This document shows positions 8,140-16,379 of a stretch of 64,000 bases of DNA, in pieces (position 1 is the first letter of the stretch; each line of letters opens with the position of its first letter). This stretch comes from an uncultured Acidimicrobiales bacterium (lineage in GTDB: Bacteria > Actinomycetota > Acidimicrobiia > Acidimicrobiales > SHLQ01). The stretch is taken from contig CAKZVC010000033.1 in the NCBI GenBank assembly GCA_937922235.1, positions 7,274 to 71,273 on the forward strand. The letters run 5' to 3'. The translations under genes and the position numbers were made by a program. A model generated the notes under the pieces. That model searched no databases, was not told the origin of the DNA, and saw only the letters and a program-made list of their open reading frames with translations.

Positions 8140-9216
8140 TCATCCGGCGGTGATCGCTCGACGGTAGGCGGAGAGGTACAGGTCAGCCAATCGCCGCATG
8201 GAGAACTCGCTCACACGCTCCGATCCGCTAGCGATGAGCTCGTCTCGGCGGGCCGGGCTGGCGAGTACTTGGTCGAGTTCACGAGCCAGCTTGTTGGGAT
8301 CCCCTGGTGGAACGAGCGCGCCGTCAAGACCGTTTCGGGTCACCTTGGCATAGCCAGGGATGTCGCTAGCGACCACCGCCGTCTCCGCTGCCATTGCTTC
8401 GAGGAGCACAATGCCGAACGACTCGCCGTGCAACGACGGAGCGCAGAAAATGTCGGCGCCAAGCATGCGGTCGATCTTTTCGTCTTCATCGATCTCGCCA
8501 AGCCACGAGATCCGCGGGTCGCCGGCGTAGAGGCCTTGCAACCCCGGTGTCTCCGGCCCAACACCGCCGACCCAGAGCCGGACGTCCGGAGGCAGCTGTT
8601 GAAATGCATCGAGCAGCACGCTGAGGCCCTTACGCTCTTCGTGGCGAGCAATGAAGAAGATCGTGGGGCCTTCAGTCTTGGTTGCGGTGCCTTCGCGATA
8701 GCGAGACACATCGACAGCGTTGAACGCGCGCTCATAGGTGCCACCGAGCGCTTGGATCGCCAGCTCTTCTGCATCGTCGGACACGGCGTATCTGATGGCG
8801 ATGCGCTTGGCTCCGCGCGAAGTGAGCGGCTTGAAAATGTCGTACGCCACGCTGTGCCCGGCTCGATGGAACGTGCCGACGATTGGAGCCGGCTTGACCA
8901 ACAGCGCGGTCATTGTCGGACCGGGGGCGATCGGCTCGTGCAGATGAAGCACGTCGAACTCTTCATCTCGCAGCGCACGGATCGTTCGAAGCTGGGCTGC
9001 AGGGTCGGGTGCAAGTGGAACGATCGATCCGTTGGCCCCGGTCGGCACACAATTTCCGAGTGGCGTCACAAAGGGCTCGGGAGGTGGCCCATCGCATGGA
9101 CCCAAGACTCGCACGTATTCACCTCGAGCTCGGATTGCTCGGGCCAAGCCGAGAATCTGCCCTTGCACTCCCCCAGGAACCGTCAGGCTGTACGGGCTGA
9201 TCATCCCGATCCTCAT
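8140..9216 (-). CDS. pimA: phosphatidylinositol alpha-mannosyltransferase (GT4)
   Basis: MRIGMISPYSLTVPGGVQ, HLHEP, ESFGIVLLEAMA; follows pgsA-patA. Confidence 0.88.
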   Translation of the reverse strand: MRIGMISPYSLTVPGGVQGQILGLARAIRARGEYVRVLGPCDGPPPEPFVTPLGNCVPTGANGSIVPLAPDPAAQLRTIRALRDEEFDVLHLHEPIAPGPTMTALLVKPAPIVGTFHRAGHSVAYDIFKPLTSRGAKRIAIRYAVSDDAEELAIQALGGTYERAFNAVDVSRYREGTATKTEGPTIFFIARHEERKGLSVLLDAFQQLPPDVRLWVGGVGPETPGLQGLYAGDPRISWLGEIDEDEKIDRMLGADIFCAPSLHGESFGIVLLEAMAAETAVVASDIPGYAKVTRNGLDGALVPPGDPNKLARELDQVLASPARRDELIASGSERVSEFSMRRLADLYLSAYRRAITAG

Positions 9217-10142
9217 GCGAGCTCCCGCAGCACTTCGGGTACGGGGCGGCCAAGCGCCCGGTAGTCGCTCGGCCAGCCGGGCTGGAGGACATGCCACTGC
9301 TCGGGGGCCTTGCGCACAAACCGTTCAAGCTCGTCTGCGAGCGATTGCGTTACCCGTTGCACGTCGGCGCGGAAGCCGCCTTGCCGTGTGGCATCAACCG
9401 GAGGGCGAACTTCAGCAACGTGCCGCGAACCATCGAAGTAGACCGCCACTGGGAGCAGAGGTGATCCGGTGCGGAGGCCGAGGGTTGCTGGGCCCGCTGG
9501 CAGCAGGGTCTCTTCGCCGAAGAATCTCACTGGCACCGACGTCGCCCCGGCAACAACGCGATCGCTCAGCAGGCAGACGATCGAGCCGTTGGTGATCGCC
9601 CGCAGAACCGCAGGTCCGGCGTCTGGCCCGACCGCCACCACTTCCATGCCGAGTGACTCTCGGAACGACTTGAACCAGTCGAAGAGCTCGGGAGGCTCAA
9701 GCGGCTCAACCACGGCTGTCACCTTGAAGCCATGCACCTGGGTCAGCCAAAACGCCGCCCATTCCCAACCCCCAAGGTGCGGCAGCACAAGGATCGGCGG
9801 CGTTCCGGCCTCAAGTGCCTCGGTGATGTGTTCGAAGCCCGTGTAGCTGAAGCCGGCGTCAATTTCTTCGGCGGAGAGCCCGGGCAGCCGAAAGCTGTCG
9901 AGGTAGTAGCGGCCATACGCTCCGAACGTCTTGGCGACGGCGCGGTGTTTCTCCGACGACGACAGCTTTCTGCCGGTCGAGCGTTCGATGTTTCGTTCGA
10001 CGATGACCCGACGATCACCGGCGAGAAACGAGGCAACCGTGCTACCGAGCGCCACAACAGCGCCGCTTAGCTTGCGGGGCGCGCGTTGAGCGGCCAGCGC
10101 ACCCAGGCGGTGGATCGTCAAGCTGTCGGGGCGAGGGAACAT
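9213..10142 (-). CDS. patA: phosphatidylinositol mannoside acyltransferase
   Basis: LPHLGGWE, CLLSDR, PEQWH; PIM operon order. Confidence 0.85.
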   Translation of the reverse strand: MFPRPDSLTIHRLGALAAQRAPRKLSGAVVALGSTVASFLAGDRRVIVERNIERSTGRKLSSSEKHRAVAKTFGAYGRYYLDSFRLPGLSAEEIDAGFSYTGFEHITEALEAGTPPILVLPHLGGWEWAAFWLTQVHGFKVTAVVEPLEPPELFDWFKSFRESLGMEVVAVGPDAGPAVLRAITNGSIVCLLSDRVVAGATSVPVRFFGEETLLPAGPATLGLRTGSPLLPVAVYFDGSRHVAEVRPPVDATRQGGFRADVQRVTQSLADELERFVRKAPEQWHVLQPGWPSDYRALGRPVPEVLRELA

Positions 10143-10154
10143 GAGTGGTTCCGC

Positions 10155-10844
10155 TTACCGCCGATCGGTTTTGCGCTTGGCGGATTGGGTCGTGCGGCGA
10201 GCCTCGCGAGCACGTCGGCGAGTGACCGGACCCGGCGCAGGTGTCGGGCGGCCAACGCTGGCCTGCTTCCACACCTTGAAGAATCGCTGCACGGCCGTGA
10301 CCGCAGTGAGCGCAAGCATGACCCATAGAACCACGAGCAACAGGCTTGCGTTGATGGACCCAAGGCCCAGACCAACACCAAGTGCAATGAAGCGCTCGGC
10401 GCGCTCCATGAGGCCACCCTTCGCGTCGAAACCGAGGGACTCGGCCTTTGCTCGCTGGTAACTGATCATGACGGCAAGGCCCATGATTGCGACCGGCAGC
10501 ATATGCATCTGGTCGTCACGTGTTGCCGAGAGATGCCAGGCAACACCGCTGAACAACATGATGTCGGTGAGCCGATCGGAGACCGAATCGAAGTAGGCGC
10601 CGCGCATGGAAGAGGTTCCGGCGGCCTTTGCGATGGCGCCGTCCAGCAGGTCGGGCAGACCGGTGCAGATCATCAACACCAGGCCGATCGCCAGGTTGCC
10701 CGAACCAATCACGACTGCGGCCACCGCCGACATACCAATACCGACGAGTGTCATCACATCTGCGGTGATTCCCATGTTGACCAGGGCTGCGCCAACTGGC
10801 TGCACGTTCTTGTCGACCTGGTCTCGAAAGTTTCCGTCAAACAT
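10155..10844 (-). CDS. pgsA: CDP-alcohol phosphatidyltransferase (phosphatidylinositol phosphate synthase)
   Basis: DLLDGAIA...GAYFDSVSDR motif; RAKAESLG. Confidence 0.88.
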   Translation of the reverse strand: MFDGNFRDQVDKNVQPVGAALVNMGITADVMTLVGIGMSAVAAVVIGSGNLAIGLVLMICTGLPDLLDGAIAKAAGTSSMRGAYFDSVSDRLTDIMLFSGVAWHLSATRDDQMHMLPVAIMGLAVMISYQRAKAESLGFDAKGGLMERAERFIALGVGLGLGSINASLLLVVLWVMLALTAVTAVQRFFKVWKQASVGRPTPAPGPVTRRRAREARRTTQSAKRKTDRR

Positions 10845-10898
10845 GGATTCTCCTCGTCGTGACTCCACTGGAGGTTAGCTGTGATTACGATCTGGTCC

Positions 10899-11399
10899 AT
10901 GCGTGACCGTTACGAATCCCTCAAGCCCAACAACCTGGTGGCCTCGATGGCCTCGATGCCCAGGCGTTGGAAAGATGCCATTCGCGTTGACCCGCCGAAG
11001 GACATCGAGGACTTCTTCAACGTGTCGACCTCGAGCGGCAACCCCGCCGAGCTTGTTGGCAATGTTGTCGCCCAGCTCAAGATTCTCGAAGATGCGATTC
11101 GCACGACGAGCTACAACATTCCTGAGACCCTGCCGGTTGAAGCCATCGCTGCAGCCAAGAACCTGGGCTCGGGCCCCTGGCCGTCGAGCGCGGCAGACGC
11201 TCGCGACGAGCTGACGGCCGCGTTCAACGCCCTCGAAGAGCGCCTGCGGGGCCTGAACACCCACGACTGGGCGAAATCGGCAACCGTTGAAGGTGGGGGT
11301 GACTCACTATCGGTTCTGCAGCTCGCTCAAGGCGCAAGCCGAGTTGCTGCGACCGCGCTACCTCTCGTCGAGCGAGCAATCCGAGAAGCCGCCGACTAA
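10899..11399 (+). CDS. hypothetical helical protein (possibly DinB-like fold)
   Basis: Clean ORF with GC3-rich codons, divergent from pgsA; fold is a guess. Confidence 0.65.
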   Translation: MRDRYESLKPNNLVASMASMPRRWKDAIRVDPPKDIEDFFNVSTSSGNPAELVGNVVAQLKILEDAIRTTSYNIPETLPVEAIAAAKNLGSGPWPSSAADARDELTAAFNALEERLRGLNTHDWAKSATVEGGGDSLSVLQLAQGASRVAATALPLVERAIREAAD

Positions 11400-11407
11400 C
11401 CGCTCTC

Positions 11408-11458
11408 CAAAATTTCGTGGTTTCAACACATCCACGGTGCGCGAACCACGAAATTTTC
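11408..11458. terminator. bidirectional hairpin between convergent genes
   Basis: AAAATTTCGTGGTT ... AACCACGAAATTTT inverted repeat. Confidence 0.55.
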
Positions 11459-11460
11459 GG

Positions 11461-12018
11461 CTAGCTAGGCTCTAGGCCCTGACTCGCTGGCTCTAGGCCA
11501 GCCCAGTCTTCTGGGTTGTCTTCAGCAAAGACGTGGATGACTTCGGCATCTACGCCGTCGACCATTGCAAACCCACGCTGCTTCGGCGGCGACTCGTTCG
11601 AGTACATAAGGATCCGCCAGGTAGGACGGCTGCGCAGACCGCGCCAGGCCATCTGGGCGGAAGCATGCCCAACGGGGAACCCAACAGCCTTGGTGGCTTC
11701 GACCAACGCGTCTTGCTCATCGACGGCGAGGTCCCAGCCACCCTGCAGGTGATACAGACCAACAATGACCAGCGCGACCGCAGCGAGCGCTACGCCGCCA
11801 TTCATCAGCGGCGACGTGTCGCCTGTTCCGAGGAACCACAGCACGAGCAGCAGTCCGCCGATGGCGATGTACAAGATGCCGGGGATGCGGCGCTTGCTGT
11901 TGTTCGGAAACAGGTAGGGGCCAACGAAGTCGGCCGCGTTCAGATCGTCCGGAAGTTCGTCGACGTACTCGTCGTCGAGATCGATATCGGTGGGTTCGAC
12001 ACTCTCGTCACTGGCCAT
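11461..12018 (-). CDS. hypothetical membrane protein (2 TM, acidic N-terminus)
   Basis: VGPYLFPNNSKRR, two hydrophobic helices, WRGLRSRPTW. Confidence 0.75.
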   Translation of the reverse strand: MASDESVEPTDIDLDDEYVDELPDDLNAADFVGPYLFPNNSKRRIPGILYIAIGGLLLVLWFLGTGDTSPLMNGGVALAAVALVIVGLYHLQGGWDLAVDEQDALVEATKAVGFPVGHASAQMAWRGLRSRPTWRILMYSNESPPKQRGFAMVDGVDAEVIHVFAEDNPEDWAGLEPASQGLEPS

Positions 12019-12027
12019 GACGCCAGG

Positions 12028-12606
12028 TTATTGGGCAATCAGCGCTTCGACGTCTTCGCGCAGCGATCCGGAACGACGTTTTGACGTCCAGGTTCCGTCA
12101 TCATTGACGAACACGAACGTGCCTTGCGATCCGACGCCGAAACGTTCCCAGATGACGTCGCCATTTGTGAACGTCGGGAACGTGTTTGCACCCGTCGTAT
12201 CCAGGAAGCTGGCCTTCGACTCTTCGTCAGAGCTCAGTCCAGGCACGCCAATGAACTGGACTTGATCTCCAAACTCTCTCTCGACCTCCACGACCGTGGG
12301 GGCTTCGCCGCGTCAAGTAGGTCACCAGGGGGCCCAGAACCAAAAGACCACGTCTTTGTTCTGGGCGTCGGCGAGGTTAAAGCTCGGTCCGCCAAAGGTA
12401 TCGAACTCGCCCTCAAGAAAGGCGTTCGCTCCGGGAGCACCAGCCTGTGCTGACTCGACCGGAGCGGTTGATGCACCGTTGCCGCACGCCGTGGCGACGA
12501 GTCCAACAAGCGTGAGCAGAATCACCAAACGTCGGGCTAAGCCCAACTGTTGAGATGAAGCGCTCGAGCGCACGCCAGATTGCATAGAAGAAACGGTACT
12601 GCTCAC
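12028..12606 (-). CDS. TlpA/redoxin-family lipoprotein, probable selenoprotein with UxxU active site
   Basis: ORFs 12322..12606 and 12028..12291 are in frame and joined by TGG-TGA-CCT-ACT-TGA-CGC, giving FWAPW-U-P-T-U-RGEAP at the CxxC position; lipobox VATAC. Confidence 0.85.
12284..12303 (-). promoter_or_regulatory. bacterial SECIS-like hairpin
   Basis: GCC-C-CCAC-GGUC-GUGG-A-GGU; loop begins 17 nt after the second UGA and 26 nt after the first; GGUC loop like the E. coli fdhF SECIS. Confidence 0.75.
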
Positions 12607-12676
12607 AGAAGCTCTATCGGACGATCCCTGGCAATTCTCAACCTTTCCTCACCGTCTGTTCATACGAATAGACAGG

Positions 12677-13279
12677 TCAGGTCGGCCACGCCGACCGCAG
12701 GCGCGACCACGAGTCCGACAAGCTCTCGGGAAGGGCCCTGGCCTCGGCGATGCTCGTGAGAAAATTCGTGTCGCCCGACCAACGAGGCAGCACGTGGACA
12801 TGCATGTGGTCGGGAACTCCAGCACCAGAGGCTCGGCCAAGGTTCATGCCCATGTTGACGCCGTCAGGCTGGTACTCGGCCTTTACTGCAGTGATCCCCA
12901 TCCGGACGCCTTCCCACAGCTCCTGGAAGGTGGCGGGGTCGAGGTCTTCGATGTTCACGGCGGCCTTCTTTGGCAGCACCATCAGATGACCGGACGTGTA
13001 CGGGTAGGCGTTGAGCAGCGCGAAGCAGTGCTCGCCTCGCCAAAGGATGTAAGTAATCGAATCGTCCAAGCCGGATTGCTCGATTCCCTCAAACAGTGTC
13101 AGATTTTCGGCAAGGCCTTTCGATCGCTCGTCGTCCTCGGCGAGGATGTACGGGATTCGCCACCCCGCCCACAGGCGAGCCATCTGCTCCCGACCCGACA
13201 ACGTGTTGTTGAGCTGTTGGCTTCCTGTCGACGACGACGACGGATCTCCAGCGGAAGTCTGGAGCGAATCATCGCTCAC
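12677..13279 (-). CDS. HIT-family hydrolase (Ap4A phosphorylase-like)
   Basis: LNAYPYTSGHLMV, HMHVHVLPRWSGD; follows thrS as in other Actinobacteria. Confidence 0.92.
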   Translation of the reverse strand: MSDDSLQTSAGDPSSSSTGSQQLNNTLSGREQMARLWAGWRIPYILAEDDERSKGLAENLTLFEGIEQSGLDDSITYILWRGEHCFALLNAYPYTSGHLMVLPKKAAVNIEDLDPATFQELWEGVRMGITAVKAEYQPDGVNMGMNLGRASGAGVPDHMHVHVLPRWSGDTNFLTSIAEARALPESLSDSWSRLRSAWPT

Positions 13280-15240
13280 GCCTTGGTCTCGATCTCCTCG
13301 TTGAGCATCGCGATGAAGTCGTCCACCGGCACGTCACGGTCGACGTCCTGCACCCCCCGCTTGTTGACACCCAGCGTGCGGTTCTCAACGTCGTCATCGC
13401 CAACGACAAGTACGTATGGCGTCTTCTCGATCTTGGCGTTTCGCACGCGCTTGCCCAGCCCGTCGTTTGCGGGATCGACCGCAACGCGGAAGCCCTGTTC
13501 CTTGAACATGGCGTACAGCTCATCGACGTACCCGTCGTGAACCTCGGCCACGGGAAGGATCTTGATTTGGGTCGGCGCGAGCCATGCCGGGAAGTTGCCA
13601 GCGTAGTGCTCGATAAGGACACCAAAGAACCGTTCGATCGAACCCATGAGGGCCCGGTGGATCATGACTGGTTGCTTGCGCTCGCCATCAGCGGCGACGT
13701 ATTCAAGGTCGAAGCGATCGGGCAGGTTGAAATCGAGCTGGATCGTGGACAACTGCCACGCTCGGCCGATCGCGTCGCGCACGTCCACGTCGATCTTTGG
13801 TCCGTAGAACGCGCCGCCACCCTCATCGACGACGTAATCGAGCCCCTGCTTCTCCAACGCTGCCTTCAGGCCGGCGGTTGCGGACTCCCAGATCTCATCG
13901 TCGCCGACCGACTTCTCCTCAGGGCGAGTCGAGAGCTTTGCCTGGAAGTCCTCGAAGCCGAACGCCCGCAACACCGACAGCACGAAGTCGAGCAACGAGG
14001 CGAGCTCGTCTTCGATCATTTCGCGGGTGCAGAAGATGTGACTGTCGTCCTGGGTAAAGCCACGGCTTCGCATGAGTCCGTGCACGGCGCCAGACAATTC
14101 GTATCGGTAAACCGTGCCGAGCTCGAAGATCCGCATCGGCAGATCGCGGTACGAGCGCTGGTCGCTCTTGTAGACCATCACGTGAAACGGACAGTTCATT
14201 GGCTTCGGGTAGTAGGTGGCGCCGTCCATCTCCATGGGCGGATACATGCCGTCGGCGTAGAAGTCGAGGTGCCCGGAGGTCTCCCACAGCACCGACTTCG
14301 CAAGATGTGGGCTGTAGGCGAACTCGTAGCCGCCGTTCTCGTGCCGATCGCGGCTGTAGTCCTCCATCAGCTTGCGGATGACCGCACCCTTGGGGTGCCA
14401 CACGGCCAACCCCGGCCCGAGTTCATCGGGCCACGACACAAGGTCCATCTCGCGAGCGAGACGGCGATGATCTCGTTTCTCGGCCTCTTCGAGGCGATGC
14501 AAGTGCGCCTTCAGATCCTTCTTGTTCGCCCAGGCGGTGCCGTAGATTCGCTGCAGCATCGGGCGCTTCTCGTCACCACGCCAGTAGGCGCCGGCGACCT
14601 TCATCAGCTTGACGTGTTCGAGCTTGGACGTGCTTGGCACGTGCGGGCCTGTGCACATGTCGAGGAACGTGTCGGAGTTTCGGTAGTAGCTGACCGTGTC
14701 ACCACTCAACTCACCCGCATCCTCTGACGAAGCACCGCCGCTGCGCACGCCCTCGATGATCTCCAGCTTGTACGGCTCGTCCTTGAACAGTTCGAGCGCT
14801 TCTTCGATCGAGATCTCGTGGCGCTCGAACGGCTGGTCGGCCTTGACGAGCTCCTTCATCCGCTTCTCGATCGCTTCGAGATCGTCGTCGGAGAGGGTCT
14901 TGCCATCGGGCAAGTCGAAGTCGTAATAGAACCCGTGCTCGATGGGTGGACCGATCGCGAATCGGGCGCCCGGATGCAGATCGAGAATGGCCTGAGCCAT
15001 CAAGTGTGCGGCCGAATGGCGGATGGTGTGCAACCCGGCATCATCGCTGCCAGTTACCAAGGCAACCGTCGCACCGTCGGTCAACGGCACGTCGAGGTCG
15101 ACCTCGGTTCCGTCAACGACAGCGATCAACGCAGCTTTGGCAAGACCCGGCCCGATATCGGCAGCCAAGTCGGCGGCAGTAGACCCTGATGGAAGCTCTC
15201 GGCTTGATCCATCGGGCAACGACACAGTTACAGCACTCAT
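13276..15240 (-). CDS. thrS: threonine--tRNA ligase
   Basis: TGS domain, RHSAAHL, GAYWRGDE, KPMNCP, GAFYGPKID. Confidence 0.97.
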   Translation of the reverse strand: MSAVTVSLPDGSSRELPSGSTAADLAADIGPGLAKAALIAVVDGTEVDLDVPLTDGATVALVTGSDDAGLHTIRHSAAHLMAQAILDLHPGARFAIGPPIEHGFYYDFDLPDGKTLSDDDLEAIEKRMKELVKADQPFERHEISIEEALELFKDEPYKLEIIEGVRSGGASSEDAGELSGDTVSYYRNSDTFLDMCTGPHVPSTSKLEHVKLMKVAGAYWRGDEKRPMLQRIYGTAWANKKDLKAHLHRLEEAEKRDHRRLAREMDLVSWPDELGPGLAVWHPKGAVIRKLMEDYSRDRHENGGYEFAYSPHLAKSVLWETSGHLDFYADGMYPPMEMDGATYYPKPMNCPFHVMVYKSDQRSYRDLPMRIFELGTVYRYELSGAVHGLMRSRGFTQDDSHIFCTREMIEDELASLLDFVLSVLRAFGFEDFQAKLSTRPEEKSVGDDEIWESATAGLKAALEKQGLDYVVDEGGGAFYGPKIDVDVRDAIGRAWQLSTIQLDFNLPDRFDLEYVAADGERKQPVMIHRALMGSIERFFGVLIEHYAGNFPAWLAPTQIKILPVAEVHDGYVDELYAMFKEQGFRVAVDPANDGLGKRVRNAKIEKTPYVLVVGDDDVENRTLGVNKRGVQDVDRDVPVDDFIAMLNEEIETKA

Positions 15241-15338: not shown

Positions 15339-16379
15339 ATGAAGTTTACGACCCGGTCGCTTGCAGCAGCCTCCGCTGTAGCAATTGCCTCCAGCGTGCT
15401 CGCAGTAGCACCCGCAGCCGCACAGGAAACGTGTGGTGGCAAGGCCGCCACGATCTCCTCGGATGCTGCAGTTATTCGTGGAACCGAAGGCAACGACGTG
15501 ATCATCGCCGGCCCCGGAAACAACCGGATCGAAGCCCTCGGCGGGGACGACATCATCTGCGGCCGTGCAGGTGACGACGAGATCATCGCTGGCGACGGAA
15601 ACGACTTCATCCGCGCCGGCGGCGGCGCCGACACCGTGTTCGGTGGCGAAGGAGCCGACCGCATGTTCGGCGGTTGGGGCGGAGACACGCTCAATGGCGG
15701 ACCTGGCACCGACCGTCTCTGGGGCGAACAGAACCAAGACAAGCTCAATGGCGGTCCAGGCAACGACATCATCCGCGGCGGTTTCGCGATCGATGAGCTC
15801 AACGGCGGCGACGGCGACGACCTTATGGTCGCCGGATTCGGACGCGACATCCTCTTCGGCGGACCCGGAGACGATCGCATGTACGGCCAGGGCTATGCAG
15901 ACGTAATGGACGGTGGCCTCGGCGACGACTGGATGCACGGTGGCCCCGGTCCCGACGACATGCTCGGCGGCCTCGGACGCGACACCATGATCGGCGGACC
16001 CGACGACGACTTCATGCTCGGCGATGACCGCAAGCAATACCTCGAAGGCGGCACCACCATCACCCATCCAGGTGGCAACGACACCATGAACGGTGGCCCC
16101 GGCAACGATTACCTCGGCGGCGAAGGCGGCAACGACATTCTGCTCGGCAACCAGGGCCTCGACGTGGTCGACGGCTTCCACGGCAACGACCGGGTCGAAG
16201 GCAACCTCGCCAACGACCTCCTCAGCGGAGGCGCAGGCAACGATGTCGTCATCGGCGGCTCAGGCGCCGACCGATGCTGGCCAGAGTTCGTCGTCGTCAC
16301 CGCAGGCGTTGTGCCCCCAGCCAACGCCAACGACAGCACCAGCCAGTGCGAGCTCATCAACCCCGTCCTGCAGCGTTAA
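15339..16379 (+). CDS. secreted calcium-binding protein with hemolysin-type GGxGxD repeats
   Basis: Signal peptide ending AAA-Q, TCGG.. start, many GGxGxDxLx nonapeptides. Confidence 0.88.
   Translation: MKFTTRSLAAASAVAIASSVLAVAPAAAQETCGGKAATISSDAAVIRGTEGNDVIIAGPGNNRIEALGGDDIICGRAGDDEIIAGDGNDFIRAGGGADTVFGGEGADRMFGGWGGDTLNGGPGTDRLWGEQNQDKLNGGPGNDIIRGGFAIDELNGGDGDDLMVAGFGRDILFGGPGDDRMYGQGYADVMDGGLGDDWMHGGPGPDDMLGGLGRDTMIGGPDDDFMLGDDRKQYLEGGTTITHPGGNDTMNGGPGNDYLGGEGGNDILLGNQGLDVVDGFHGNDRVEGNLANDLLSGGAGNDVVIGGSGADRCWPEFVVVTAGVVPPANANDSTSQCELINPVLQR

What the first reader, a model, noticed from the sequence alone, without database searches (positions are those of the whole stretch)
12028..12606. 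Redoxin lipoprotein with a double-selenocysteine UxxU active site and one shared SECIS
Seen: the minus strand reads TTC TGG GCC CCC TGG TGA CCT ACT TGA CGC GGC GAA GCC, i.e. FWAPW-U-P-T-U-RGEA. Both Cys of the TlpA WCxxC motif are UGA (12324-12322, 12315-12313) and the frame continues as a redoxin fold. A hairpin CCAC-GGUC-GUGG lies 26 and 17 nt after the UGAs. Known: bacterial SECIS elements sit just 3' of the UGA, and UxxU is rare (SelL family). Inference: an exported diselenide oxidoreductase decoded twice from one SECIS. The usual cis-Pro position also appears to read SQG rather than xQP.
Basis: partly seen in the sequence, partly recalled or inferred. Interest (0 to 1): 0.88.

Follow-up and report, generated by a model that had tools for sequence, protein, structure and literature searches.

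The report
Double-selenocysteine exported redox lipoprotein gene
This gene from a marine actinobacterium encodes a membrane-anchored, exported redox protein in which both active-site cysteines are replaced by selenocysteine, read from two UGA codons that share one RNA hairpin; it is real and conserved, but belongs to a kind already described.

Summary
Window 12606-12028 (minus strand) reads through two in-frame TGA codons as ...FWFWAPW-U-PT-U-RGEAP... in a 192-aa thioredoxin-fold lipoprotein.

It is not chance or error:
- I verified 33 distinct homologous genes with W-U-P-[F/T/H]-U: 27 in 22 related genomes and 6 in Acidimicrobiales/Actinomycetota MAG records.
- All carry a hairpin with an invariant GGUC loop, 26 nt after the first UGA and 17 nt after the second.
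- Three stem pairs switch by double changes at least 4, 6 and 7 times on the family tree and are never broken.
- The genome encodes selA, selB, selD and two tRNA-Sec genes.
- TGA also ends some of these same genes, so the code is standard.
- A glutathione peroxidase in the same genome and E. coli fdhF have the same GGUC loop, 21 and 18 nt after their UGA.

The nearest solved relatives are the M. tuberculosis extracytoplasmic oxidants DsbF and DsbE, not TlpA or SelL.

The cis-proline is Gly here. It is Arg, as in peroxiredoxins, in 29 of 33 clade members.

UxxU redoxins with one bacterial SECIS are already in print, so this is a new member of a known kind. Selenium insertion, the diselenide and the activity remain untested.

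The parts
12028..12606 (-). Coding sequence of the UxxU redoxin lipoprotein: 192 codons plus a TAA stop. The start is uncertain: GTG 12606, ATG 12585 or TTG 12546.
   Evidence: translation with TGA=U; split into two ORFs under table 11; Redoxin 33 bits, Thioredoxin 33.1, AhpC-TSA 31.2, all above their cut-offs.
12484..12606 (-). Lipoprotein signal peptide ending in the lipobox V-A-T-A-C (Cys41 codon at 12486-12484). It has an RR n-region and the hydrophobic core LVILLTLVGLV.
   Evidence: Read. [AST]-A-C-G is conserved in the homologues. lgt and lspA are in the genome. No signal-peptide predictor was available.
12322..12324 (-). First in-frame UGA (U95), at the place of the N-terminal Cys of the WCxxC motif.
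   Evidence: It aligns with Cys in DsbF/DsbE and in CxxC homologues. It is TGA in all 33 UxxU genes and in the UxxC paralogues.
12313..12315 (-). Second in-frame UGA (U98), at the place of the C-terminal Cys of the WCxxC motif.
   Evidence: It is TGA in 33 of 33 genes of the UxxU clade and TGC/TGT in the 5 close UxxC paralogues.
12284..12303 (-). SECIS-like hairpin: an 8-position stem (GCCCCCAC / GUGGAGGU, with one C.A mismatch) closing the loop GGUC (12295-12292).
   Evidence: loop invariant 32/32; three pairs covary and are never broken; covariation 0.356 against 0.183 shuffled, 0/500; 4, 6 and 7 changes on the tree; same loop in the genome's own GPx and in E. coli fdhF.
12031..12429 (-). 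Thioredoxin-fold (DsbE/DsbF-like) domain, residues about 60-192.
   Evidence: The AF2 model has pLDDT 89-98 per 10-residue block from residue 61. Foldseek gives 3IOS TM 0.85 and 1LU4 TM 0.84. phmmer gives 1.7e-18 and 1.8e-16.
12121..12123 (-). Gly162 codon at the position of the conserved cis-proline.
   Evidence: Alignment to DsbF; column tally; the model's strand starts at residue 163.

Best explanation
The gene encodes a genuine selenoprotein: an exported, lipid-anchored thioredoxin-fold oxidoreductase of the actinobacterial DsbE/DsbF (MPT53) type. Both active-site cysteines are replaced by selenocysteine (W-U95-P-T-U98). While the mRNA is translated, SelB carrying Sec-tRNA(Sec) binds the GGUC-loop hairpin that lies inside the coding sequence. 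It delivers Sec first at the UGA 26 nt upstream of the loop and then, two codons later, at the UGA 17 nt upstream. One SECIS therefore serves both codons. The precursor is exported, lipidated on Cys41 and tethered to the outer face of the cytoplasmic membrane. There the two selenols cycle between a diselenide and a selenolate form to exchange redox equivalents with envelope proteins or small oxidants. Shown here: the double UGA, the covarying hairpin, the Sec machinery, the fold, and the family relationship. Inferred: Sec at both codons, the diselenide, export, and the direction of the redox reaction.
For: (1) Both UGAs sit exactly where DsbF, DsbE and 24 CxxC homologues have Cys.

(2) The double UGA is conserved. 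There are 27 distinct W-U-P-[FT]-U genes in 22 genomes: 20 of the 26 same-genus genomes including the window's own, and 2 of 11 from other genera of the family. Six more occur in Acidimicrobiales/Actinomycetota MAG records. Identity to the window protein falls as low as 40%.

(3) Coding continues past both UGAs. Mean pairwise differences at codon positions 1/2/3 are 0.289/0.133/0.564 downstream of the hairpin, against 0.304/0.220/0.509 upstream of the first UGA.

(4) The hairpin is conserved and covaries. The GGUC loop is invariant in 32/32 rows. Pair 36-45 is UA in 20 and CG in 12; pair 37-44 is AU in 20 and GC in 12; pair 33-48 is CG 24, UA 5, GC 2, UG 1. None is ever broken. The covariation score is 0.356 against 0.183 for shuffles (0/500 reach it) and at most 0.139 for slid controls. 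The switches need at least 4, 6 and 7 changes on the tree. The 37-44 switch forces paired amino-acid changes, PTVV to PAVA.

(5) selA (384 bits), selB (282) and selD (267) all score above their cut-offs. There are two tRNA-Sec genes with anticodon UCA.

(6) TGA is also an ordinary stop: 6 of the 27 UxxU genes and 5 of the 7 UxxC genes end in TGA. Neighbouring genes are intact under table 11.

(7) The same GGUC loop follows the UGA of the genome's own GPx at 21 nt (PF00255, 127.6 bits) and of E. coli fdhF at 18 nt. UxxC paralogues that have only the first UGA carry the same hairpin at 26 nt.

(8) The nearest structures are DsbF (3IOS) and DsbE (1LU4), which are reported to be oxidants (PMC3853704, passages read).

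(9) Contigs of runs from three studies show no variant at either TGA.
Against: - There is no direct evidence of selenium, of a full-length protein, or of expression.
- The 81 nt after the first UGA do not fold better than shuffles (z = +1.2).
- Rfam finds nothing, either at gathering threshold or at E <= 10.
- The stem has a C.A mismatch at pair 34-47 in 26 of 32 rows.
- The first UGA is 8 nt further from the loop than in E. coli fdhF, and rebinding of SelB within two codons is assumed, not shown.
- No redox-partner gene lies beside the gene in the window or in the two other loci examined.
- The window's copy lacks both the cis-Pro of DsbE/DsbF and the Arg of most of its own clade.
- The genome is only 87.5% complete.
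Confidence: 0.8

Rival explanations
1. The clade is a selenium-based peroxidase rather than a protein-disulfide oxidant. One Sec attacks a peroxide, the other resolves the selenenic acid to a diselenide, and Arg at the cis-Pro position activates the attacking residue as it does in peroxiredoxins. The decoding would be the same as in the best explanation; only the chemistry differs.
For: Arg occupies the cis-Pro column in 29 of 33 UxxU genes. It occupies that column in 0 of 5 close UxxC paralogues and 0 of 24 CxxC homologues. [quoted passage not shown] AhpC-TSA is among the Pfam hits (31.2 bits).
Against: The window's own copy has Gly there, two others have Ser and one has Gln. The peroxiredoxin PxxxTxxC signature is absent. 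The nearest characterised relatives are oxidants of protein thiols. No activity was measured.
Confidence: 0.25
2. One or both UGAs are read as cysteine rather than selenocysteine, through a tRNA-Sec-like tRNA-Cys (tRNA-ReC/selC*) or through mischarged tRNA-Sec delivered by SelB to the same SECIS.
For: A 2026 study found tRNA-ReC-like genes more often in genomes with UXXU-type hydrogenases and warns that such UGAs may be read as Cys (PMC13582414, passages read). This genome has two tRNA-Sec genes.
Against: The two genes differ by 1 nt. Both have anticodon UCA and a G after the acceptor stem. That G marks tRNA-Sec and U marks tRNA-ReC is recalled, not tested. The next RF01852 matches are tRNA-Ser, tRNA-Leu and one CUA tRNA; none has a GCA or UCA anticodon. 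The 'SelB-like' frame nearby is EF-Tu (593 bits).
Confidence: 0.07
3. The gene is a pseudogene, an assembly error, or a product terminated at the first UGA.
For: Under table 11 the frame is cut in two. No RNA run holding the stretch was listed (this is not evidence either way).
Against: The double TGA is conserved in 33 genes, with a coding signature beyond it. No variant appears at either TGA in contigs from three studies. The hairpin covaries.
Confidence: 0.02
4. The lineage has reassigned TGA to a standard amino acid (for example Trp or Gly) throughout the genome.
For: Many in-frame TGAs appear in redoxin paralogues of this lineage.
Against: The TGAs fall only at Cys positions of redox motifs. 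11 of the 34 genes examined end in a TGA stop at the homologous end. thrS and the other neighbours are full length under table 11. A complete Sec system is present.
Confidence: 0.01

Closest known systems
Mycobacterium tuberculosis DsbF (Rv1677, PDB 3IOS) and DsbE/MPT53 (Rv2878c, PDB 1LU4)
   Same: These are the best matches by sequence and by fold. phmmer gives 1.7e-18 and 1.8e-16; the family profile gives 7.8e-55 and 3.2e-43; Foldseek TM is 0.85 and 0.84. They share the active-site context WFWAPW-C-P-[TF]-C, a single thioredoxin-like domain, an extracytoplasmic location, and actinobacterial origin. They are reported to be oxidants that fold reduced hirudin (PMC3853704).
   Different: Both catalytic residues are UGA-encoded here. 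The cis-Pro is Gly here and Arg in most of the clade. Identity is only 30-32%. No DsbD/CcdA-type gene lies adjacent.
'Prx-like thiol:disulfide oxidoreductase' selenoprotein family (PF00578; motifs UxxC and UxxU, 1-2 Sec) of the prokaryotic selenoproteome reviews
   Same: It has a PF00578 hit above the cut-off and UxxC and UxxU forms within one family (tables in PMC13188914 and PMC9312934, passages read).
   Different: The reviews' representative is another protein that I could not fetch, so orthology is untested. The review text holds no occurrence of Acidimicrobi-, Actinobacteria, DsbE or lipoprotein.
SelL (selenoprotein L), the UxxU diselenide family
   Same: A UxxU motif in place of CxxC in a thioredoxin-like fold. 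Its bacterial members were reported to use one in-frame SECIS for two UGAs (recalled; the paper was not held; it is cited in PMC2398784).
   Different: It is a different family: PF13911 (AhpC-TSA_2) is not among the Pfam hits at E <= 0.01. The protein here is a lipoprotein.
E. coli fdhF SECIS
   Same: Identical apical loop GGUC on a short G+C-rich stem inside the coding sequence. The loop starts 18 nt after the UGA, against 17 nt for the second UGA here.
   Different: Here a second UGA lies 26 nt upstream of the loop. Stem sequence and length differ. No Rfam family matches.
UXXU-type Group 4 [NiFeSe] hydrogenases
   Same: Two UGAs three codons apart, with the proposal that one downstream SECIS serves both (PMC13582414, discussion passages read).
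   Different: That protein is unrelated and its Sec residues are metal ligands. Those genomes often carry tRNA-ReC; none was found here.

Membership tests
Bacterial SelB/SECIS-dependent selenoprotein | In-frame UGA where homologues have Cys | tested here: met
   U95 and U98 align with the two Cys of DsbF/DsbE and of 24 CxxC homologues.
Bacterial SelB/SECIS-dependent selenoprotein | Stem-loop just 3' of the UGA with G in the first two loop positions, conserved among UGA-bearing homologues | tested here: met
   The GGUC loop is invariant in 32/32 rows. Three pairs covary and are never broken. The same loop occurs in the genome's own GPx and in E. coli fdhF.
Bacterial SelB/SECIS-dependent selenoprotein | selA, selB, selD and tRNA-Sec in the genome | tested here: met
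   All four score above their curated cut-offs.
Bacterial SelB/SECIS-dependent selenoprotein | Selenium found in the protein | not testable with these tools
   Needs 75Se labelling or mass spectrometry.
Actinobacterial DsbE/DsbF (MPT53) oxidoreductases | Closest sequence and fold match; single thioredoxin-like domain with the W-C-P-x-C context | tested here: met
   The next best structures (ResA and others) score far lower.
Actinobacterial DsbE/DsbF (MPT53) oxidoreductases | Secreted or lipid-anchored | tested here: met
   Signal peptide with lipobox read from the sequence and conserved. lgt and lspA are present. No predictor was run.
Actinobacterial DsbE/DsbF (MPT53) oxidoreductases | cis-Pro before strand beta-3 | tested here: not met
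   Gly162 is in the window copy. The column is Pro in 0 of 27 UxxU genes (Arg 23, Ser 2, Gly 1, Gln 1); the six extra genes all have Arg.
Actinobacterial DsbE/DsbF (MPT53) oxidoreductases | Oxidant activity (oxidative folding of hirudin) | not testable with these tools
   A biochemical assay is needed.
SelL | Membership of the PRXL2/AhpC-TSA_2 (PF13911) family | tested here: not met
   It is not among the five Pfam families at E <= 0.01.
'Prx-like thiol:disulfide oxidoreductase' (UxxC/UxxU) | PF00578 domain with Sec in a UxxC or UxxU motif | tested here: met
   PF00578 scores 31.2 bits against a cut-off of 26; motif. Family definition taken from the review tables.
'Prx-like thiol:disulfide oxidoreductase' (UxxC/UxxU) | Orthology to the reviews' representative protein | not tested
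   That sequence could not be obtained with these tools.
TlpA / ResA cytochrome-maturation reductases | Score over the NCBIfam cut-off; link to ccdA / cytochrome c genes | tested here: not met
   ResA scores 39.3 against 170 and TlpA 31 against 230. The neighbours are thrS, HIT, pgsA-like, an acyltransferase and a glycosyltransferase.
Peroxiredoxin | Arg at the cis-Pro position and a PxxxTxxC motif | tested here: not met
   The window copy has Gly and the motif W-U-P-T-U. Arg is present in 29 of 33 clade members.

The most novel reading that the evidence does not exclude
This Acidimicrobiales clade is a natural extracytoplasmic diselenide catalyst that needs no membrane re-oxidase. On this reading oxygen or peroxide re-forms the diselenide directly. 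The clade-specific change of the cis-Pro to Arg marks a shift of a DsbE/DsbF scaffold towards peroxiredoxin-like chemistry. One SECIS works in two registers (17 and 26 nt), and UxxC paralogues in the same genomes provide a built-in control for how a second Sec codon is added.
Probability: 0.25. Interest if true: 0.65.

Novelty: new member of a known kind. Interest (0 to 1): 0.45.

Why it matters
Proteins with a natural Sec-x-x-Sec site are few. As far as I recall, only SelL has been shown experimentally to form a diselenide.

This clade offers three things:
- 33 natural sequences of a UxxU protein whose closest relatives have solved structures and assays (DsbE/DsbF).
- A compact SECIS whose loop matches that of E. 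coli fdhF.
- Sister UxxC paralogues that share the same hairpin.

That makes it a convenient system for asking how one bacterial SECIS serves two UGAs three codons apart. It can also show what a diselenide does outside the cytoplasm of an aerobic marine bacterium.

There is a practical point for annotation. Gene callers split these genes in two, and no NCBIfam model reaches its cut-off on this protein.

Tried and rejected
- Rfam found no match, on the whole window at gathering scores or on 12150-12420 at E <= 10. Bacterial SECIS elements are poorly covered there.
- A single-sequence fold of the 81 nt after the first UGA was no better than shuffles (z +1.2). Only the comparative analysis shows the hairpin.
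- I suspected that a second, SelB-like factor beside the tRNA-Sec pair might point to Cys recoding. The frame is EF-Tu (593 bits) and the two tRNAs are near-identical tRNA-Sec genes, so I dropped the idea.
- Other RF01852 sub-threshold matches are tRNA-Ser, tRNA-Leu and one CUA tRNA.
- The genome-wide scan for TGA followed by a GGTC-loop hairpin gave 322 sites, 73 of them in open frames. TAG gave 103/20 and TAA 29/6. In this G+C-rich DNA the counts are no test; the scan served only to pick candidates. Three of the five candidates tested had no Pfam family and no further support.
- No redox-partner gene lies beside the gene in the window or beside UxxU genes in two other genomes. The genome holds two DsbD_TM/CcdA-type genes elsewhere. 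No VKOR was found in this 87.5%-complete assembly.
- The look-up of sequencing runs listed no RNA holder.
- The outer helix that RNAalifold adds (columns 9-15 with 63-69) has 7 broken cells of 32 at its only varying pair, so I did not adopt it.
- The rows are the 150 listed; 162 more matches were not listed. 'Not found' in the other genomes therefore means not among the listed rows.
- Rows dropped: of 34 distinct motif-bearing stretches, 2 (the SPH-U-PTC type) were left out of alignment A1. Identical DNA stretches were collapsed. Of 37 CxxC homologues, 24 went into alignment A2 and 13 near-duplicates or fragments were left out by eye.
- The tree is a 'quick' tree rooted at the midpoint. The UxxU branch has SH-aLRT 86, so the order CxxC to UxxC to UxxU is suggested, not shown.
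The supplements of PMC13582414 and of the selenoproteome surveys may list this family.

Full report
**Observation**

The minus strand of the window reads ccc tgg TGA cct act TGA cgc ggc gaa gcc ccc acg gtc gtg gag gtc. With TGA read as U, 12606-12028 is one frame of 192 codons ending in TAA. Its only two TGAs are U95 (12324-12322) and U98 (12315-12313), giving ...FWFWAPW-U-PT-U-RGEAPTVVEVE.... Under the standard code the frame is listed as two ORFs of 94 and 87 aa. The protein scores above the Pfam cut-offs for Redoxin (33 bits), Thioredoxin (33.1) and AhpC-TSA (31.2). No NCBIfam model reaches its cut-off: ResA scores 39.3 against 170 and TlpA 31 against 230.

**Is it a selenoprotein gene?**

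The window's genome has 118 contigs and is 87.5% complete. It holds the full Sec machinery:
- selA: 384 bits.
- selB, directly downstream of selA: 282 bits.
- selD: 267 bits.
- Two tRNA-Sec genes above the Rfam gathering score. ARAGORN calls both tRNA-SeC with anticodon UCA. They differ by one base and lie in inverted orientation about 1.9 kb apart.

A search of 60 relatives found many homologues with in-frame TGAs. Reading the loci gave 27 distinct genes with W-U-P-[F/T]-U in 22 genomes:
- 20 of the 26 genomes of the same genus, including the window's own.
- 2 of 11 genomes from other genera of the family.
- None among the listed matches of 24 genomes from other families of the order. (150 rows were listed and 162 were not.)

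Five close paralogues read W-U-P-T-C or W-U-T-S-C, and two distant ones read SPH-U-PTC. A scan of named genome records added six more UxxU genes from records titled Acidimicrobiales or Actinomycetota MAGs; three of them read U-P-H-U. Across the 33 genes the dipeptide between the two Sec is PF in 28, PH in 3 and PT in 2, one of which is the window's copy.

Two further results exclude a reassigned code, a pseudogene or an error:
- TGA is also a normal stop. 6 of the 27 UxxU genes and 5 of the 7 UxxC genes end in TGA at the homologous end. thrS and the other neighbours are intact under table 11.
- Beyond the second UGA the genes keep a coding signature. Mean pairwise differences at codon positions 1/2/3 are 0.289/0.133/0.564 past the hairpin, against 0.304/0.220/0.509 before the first UGA.

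Contigs of four public runs from three coded studies cover the site and show no other letter at either TGA. Relatives in those runs differ at the codon between the two TGAs.

**The hairpin**

I aligned 32 stretches of 78 nt: 27 UxxU and 5 UxxC. Two SPH-U-PTC rows were left out. The alignment has no gaps.
- The loop GGUC is invariant.
- It starts 26 nt after the first UGA and 17 nt after the second in every row.
- Of the eight stem positions, two never vary.
- Pair 36-45 is UA in 20 rows and CG in 12.
- Pair 37-44 is AU in 20 rows and GC in 12.
- Pair 33-48 is CG 24, UA 5, GC 2, UG 1.
- None of these three pairs has a broken cell.
- Pair 34-47 is a C.A mismatch in 26 rows and becomes CG or UA in 6.

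The covariation score is 0.356, against 0.183 for shuffles (0 of 500 reach it) and at most 0.139 when the partners are slid by one to three columns. On the protein tree these switches need at least 4, 6 and 7 changes, so they are not one inherited event. The 37-44 switch changes two amino acids together (PTVV to PAVA), which points to selection on the RNA.

The single sequence does not fold better than shuffles, and Rfam has no match.

The same loop occurs in other selenoprotein genes:
- A glutathione peroxidase in the same genome (PF00255, 127.6 bits, NVASK-U-G), 21 nt after its UGA on a 7-bp stem.
- A conserved 106-aa protein with no Pfam family, 23 nt after its UGA.
- E. coli fdhF, 18 nt after its UGA.

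The UxxC paralogues, which have only the first UGA, keep the same hairpin at 26 nt. Both registers are therefore used in this lineage. I saw no second conserved hairpin in the 57 nt after the second UGA.

**What the protein is**

The N-terminus has an RR motif, a hydrophobic core and the lipobox V-A-T-A-C (Cys41). The [AST]-A-C-G box recurs in the homologues. Some tandem copies carry long acidic or Thr/Pro-rich linkers after it. lgt and lspA are present.

An AlphaFold2 model built on a 58-row alignment is confident from residue 61 on (pLDDT 89-98 per block), and the helix starts right after U95.

The best solved relatives are M. tuberculosis DsbF (3IOS) and DsbE/MPT53 (1LU4):

| Measure | DsbF (3IOS) | DsbE (1LU4) |
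|---|---|---|
| phmmer E-value | 1.7e-18 | 1.8e-16 |
| Family-profile E-value | 7.8e-55 | 3.2e-43 |
| Foldseek TM | 0.85 | 0.84 |

ResA-type structures follow at TM of about 0.77 and 19% identity. In the passages I read of PMC3853704, DsbE and DsbF are described as extracytoplasmic oxidants. They fold reduced hirudin, do not reduce insulin and do not isomerise scrambled RNase. Their membrane partner is only proposed.

In a quick maximum-likelihood tree the 27 UxxU genes form one side of a branch (SH-aLRT 86). They sit next to the UxxC paralogues, inside CxxC homologues from other Actinomycetota. The root is not inferred.

**The cis-proline**

Gly162 (12123-12121) aligns with the Pro of the QQP of DsbF and lies just before the model's strand 163-167.

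| Group | Residue at the cis-Pro column |
|---|---|
| 27 UxxU genes | Arg 23, Ser 2, Gly 1 (the window), Gln 1, Pro 0 |
| 6 extra UxxU genes | Arg 6 |
| 5 close UxxC paralogues | Pro 5 |
| 24 CxxC homologues | Pro 15, Ser 8, Thr 1 |

Loss of the proline is therefore not confined to the selenoproteins. Arg, however, is confined to the UxxU clade in this sample. [quoted passage not shown] This is the basis of the rival reading that the clade acts on peroxides.

**Context**

The gene lies between thrS plus a HIT-family gene on one side, and two small unknown genes, a CDP-alcohol phosphatidyltransferase, a lipid-A-type acyltransferase and a GT1/GT4 glycosyltransferase on the other. From memory, this order resembles the actinobacterial phosphatidylinositol-mannoside cluster. 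No redox partner is adjacent here or beside UxxU genes in two other genomes. The genome has two CcdA/DsbD-type genes elsewhere, and no VKOR was detected.

**Comparison with what is known**

- A full-text search for 'UxxU' with 'selenocysteine' returned six papers.
- Two reviews list a predicted family 'Prx-like thiol:disulfide oxidoreductase' (PF00578) with UxxC and UxxU forms and one or two Sec (PMC13188914 and PMC9312934, table passages). By that definition the protein here belongs to it.
- The ocean-sampling survey reports UxxU in a different, SelP-N-like 'Prx-like 2' family and cites SelL (PMC2398784, passages).
- I could not read the SelL paper. I recall that it showed a diselenide and proposed one in-frame SECIS for two UGAs in its bacterial members.
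- A 2026 paper proposes the same for UXXU hydrogenases and warns of Cys recoding by tRNA-ReC (PMC13582414, passages). No such tRNA was found here.
- The 2026 review has no occurrence of Acidimicrobi-, Actinobacteria, DsbE or lipoprotein.
- 'Selenoprotein' with 'Acidimicrobiia' returned two papers, neither on this family.

I therefore found no printed description of a DsbE/DsbF-type UxxU lipoprotein. Subscription journals and supplements were not searchable.

**Verdict**

The finding is real and well supported as a double-Sec gene with one shared SECIS. It is a new member of a known kind, not a new kind.

Noticed in passing
L133:1-318 (+) = G000:C77:4934-5251; also L137-L142: A 106-aa ORF with no Pfam family reads ...IDFIPPIG-U-GRTKYDV... 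through an in-frame TGA. A GGUC-loop hairpin follows 23 nt later. The TGA is kept in 17 of the 18 same-genus genomes searched (69-86% identity), and no match was found in 12 genomes from other families. It is a candidate selenoprotein family of unknown function.
   Followed up: partly
L132:1-471 (-) = G000:C64:67702-68172: A glutathione peroxidase (PF00255, 127.6 bits) with UGA at the NVASK-U-G site and a 7-bp GGUC-loop hairpin 21 nt downstream. selA, selB, selD and a UxxC redoxin paralogue lie on the same contig.
   Followed up: partly
L014:1502-1581 (+) = G000:C40:64234-64313: An 80-nt tRNA-like gene with anticodon CUA and an 8-bp acceptor stem. ARAGORN calls it tRNA-Pyl, and it scores 43 bits on the tRNA-Sec model. 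No PylS was found in the genome (best match 22 bits against a cut-off of 178). It remains unexplained.
   Followed up: partly
L012:73-166 (+) and L011:1499-1592 (-) = G000:C41: Two tRNA-Sec genes that differ by one base lie in inverted orientation about 1.9 kb apart, close to the contig end, next to a sigma-70 gene. This could be a true duplication or an assembly effect.
   Followed up: partly
L020-L041, L047-L052 (column of window residue 162): Arg replaces the cis-proline in 29 of 33 UxxU genes. It does so in none of the 5 close UxxC paralogues and none of the 24 CxxC homologues examined. This is the residue found at that position in peroxiredoxins.
   Followed up: partly
L028, L030, L031, L035, L038 (two UxxU genes each): Several genomes carry two UxxU genes in tandem. 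The second copy has a long acidic or Thr/Pro-rich linker between the lipobox and the domain. Three MAG genes (L048-L050) read U-P-H-U, the dipeptide that I recall from DsbA.
   Followed up: no
L028:3008-3457 (+), L032:113-562 (-), G000:C18:95237-95551: A more distant redoxin paralogue family reads SPH-U-PTC. Its sequence after the UGA is different and lacks the GGUC-loop hairpin.
   Followed up: no
window 15339-16379 (+): A 346-aa ORF with seven RTX calcium-binding nonapeptide stretches (HemolysinCabind, 172.7 bits) lies beside thrS. A 294-aa ORF overlaps it on the other strand.
   Followed up: no
window 8140-15240 (-): The gene order is thrS, HIT, [redoxin], two small unknown ORFs, a CDP-alcohol phosphatidyltransferase, a lipid-A-type acyltransferase and a glycosyltransferase. 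From memory this resembles the actinobacterial phosphatidylinositol-mannoside cluster, with the redoxin gene inserted.
   Followed up: no
L010 = G000:C64:54052-57942: The selD match (297 aa) lies in an open frame of 736 aa. This could be a fusion with another domain or just a long spurious frame in G+C-rich DNA.
   Followed up: no
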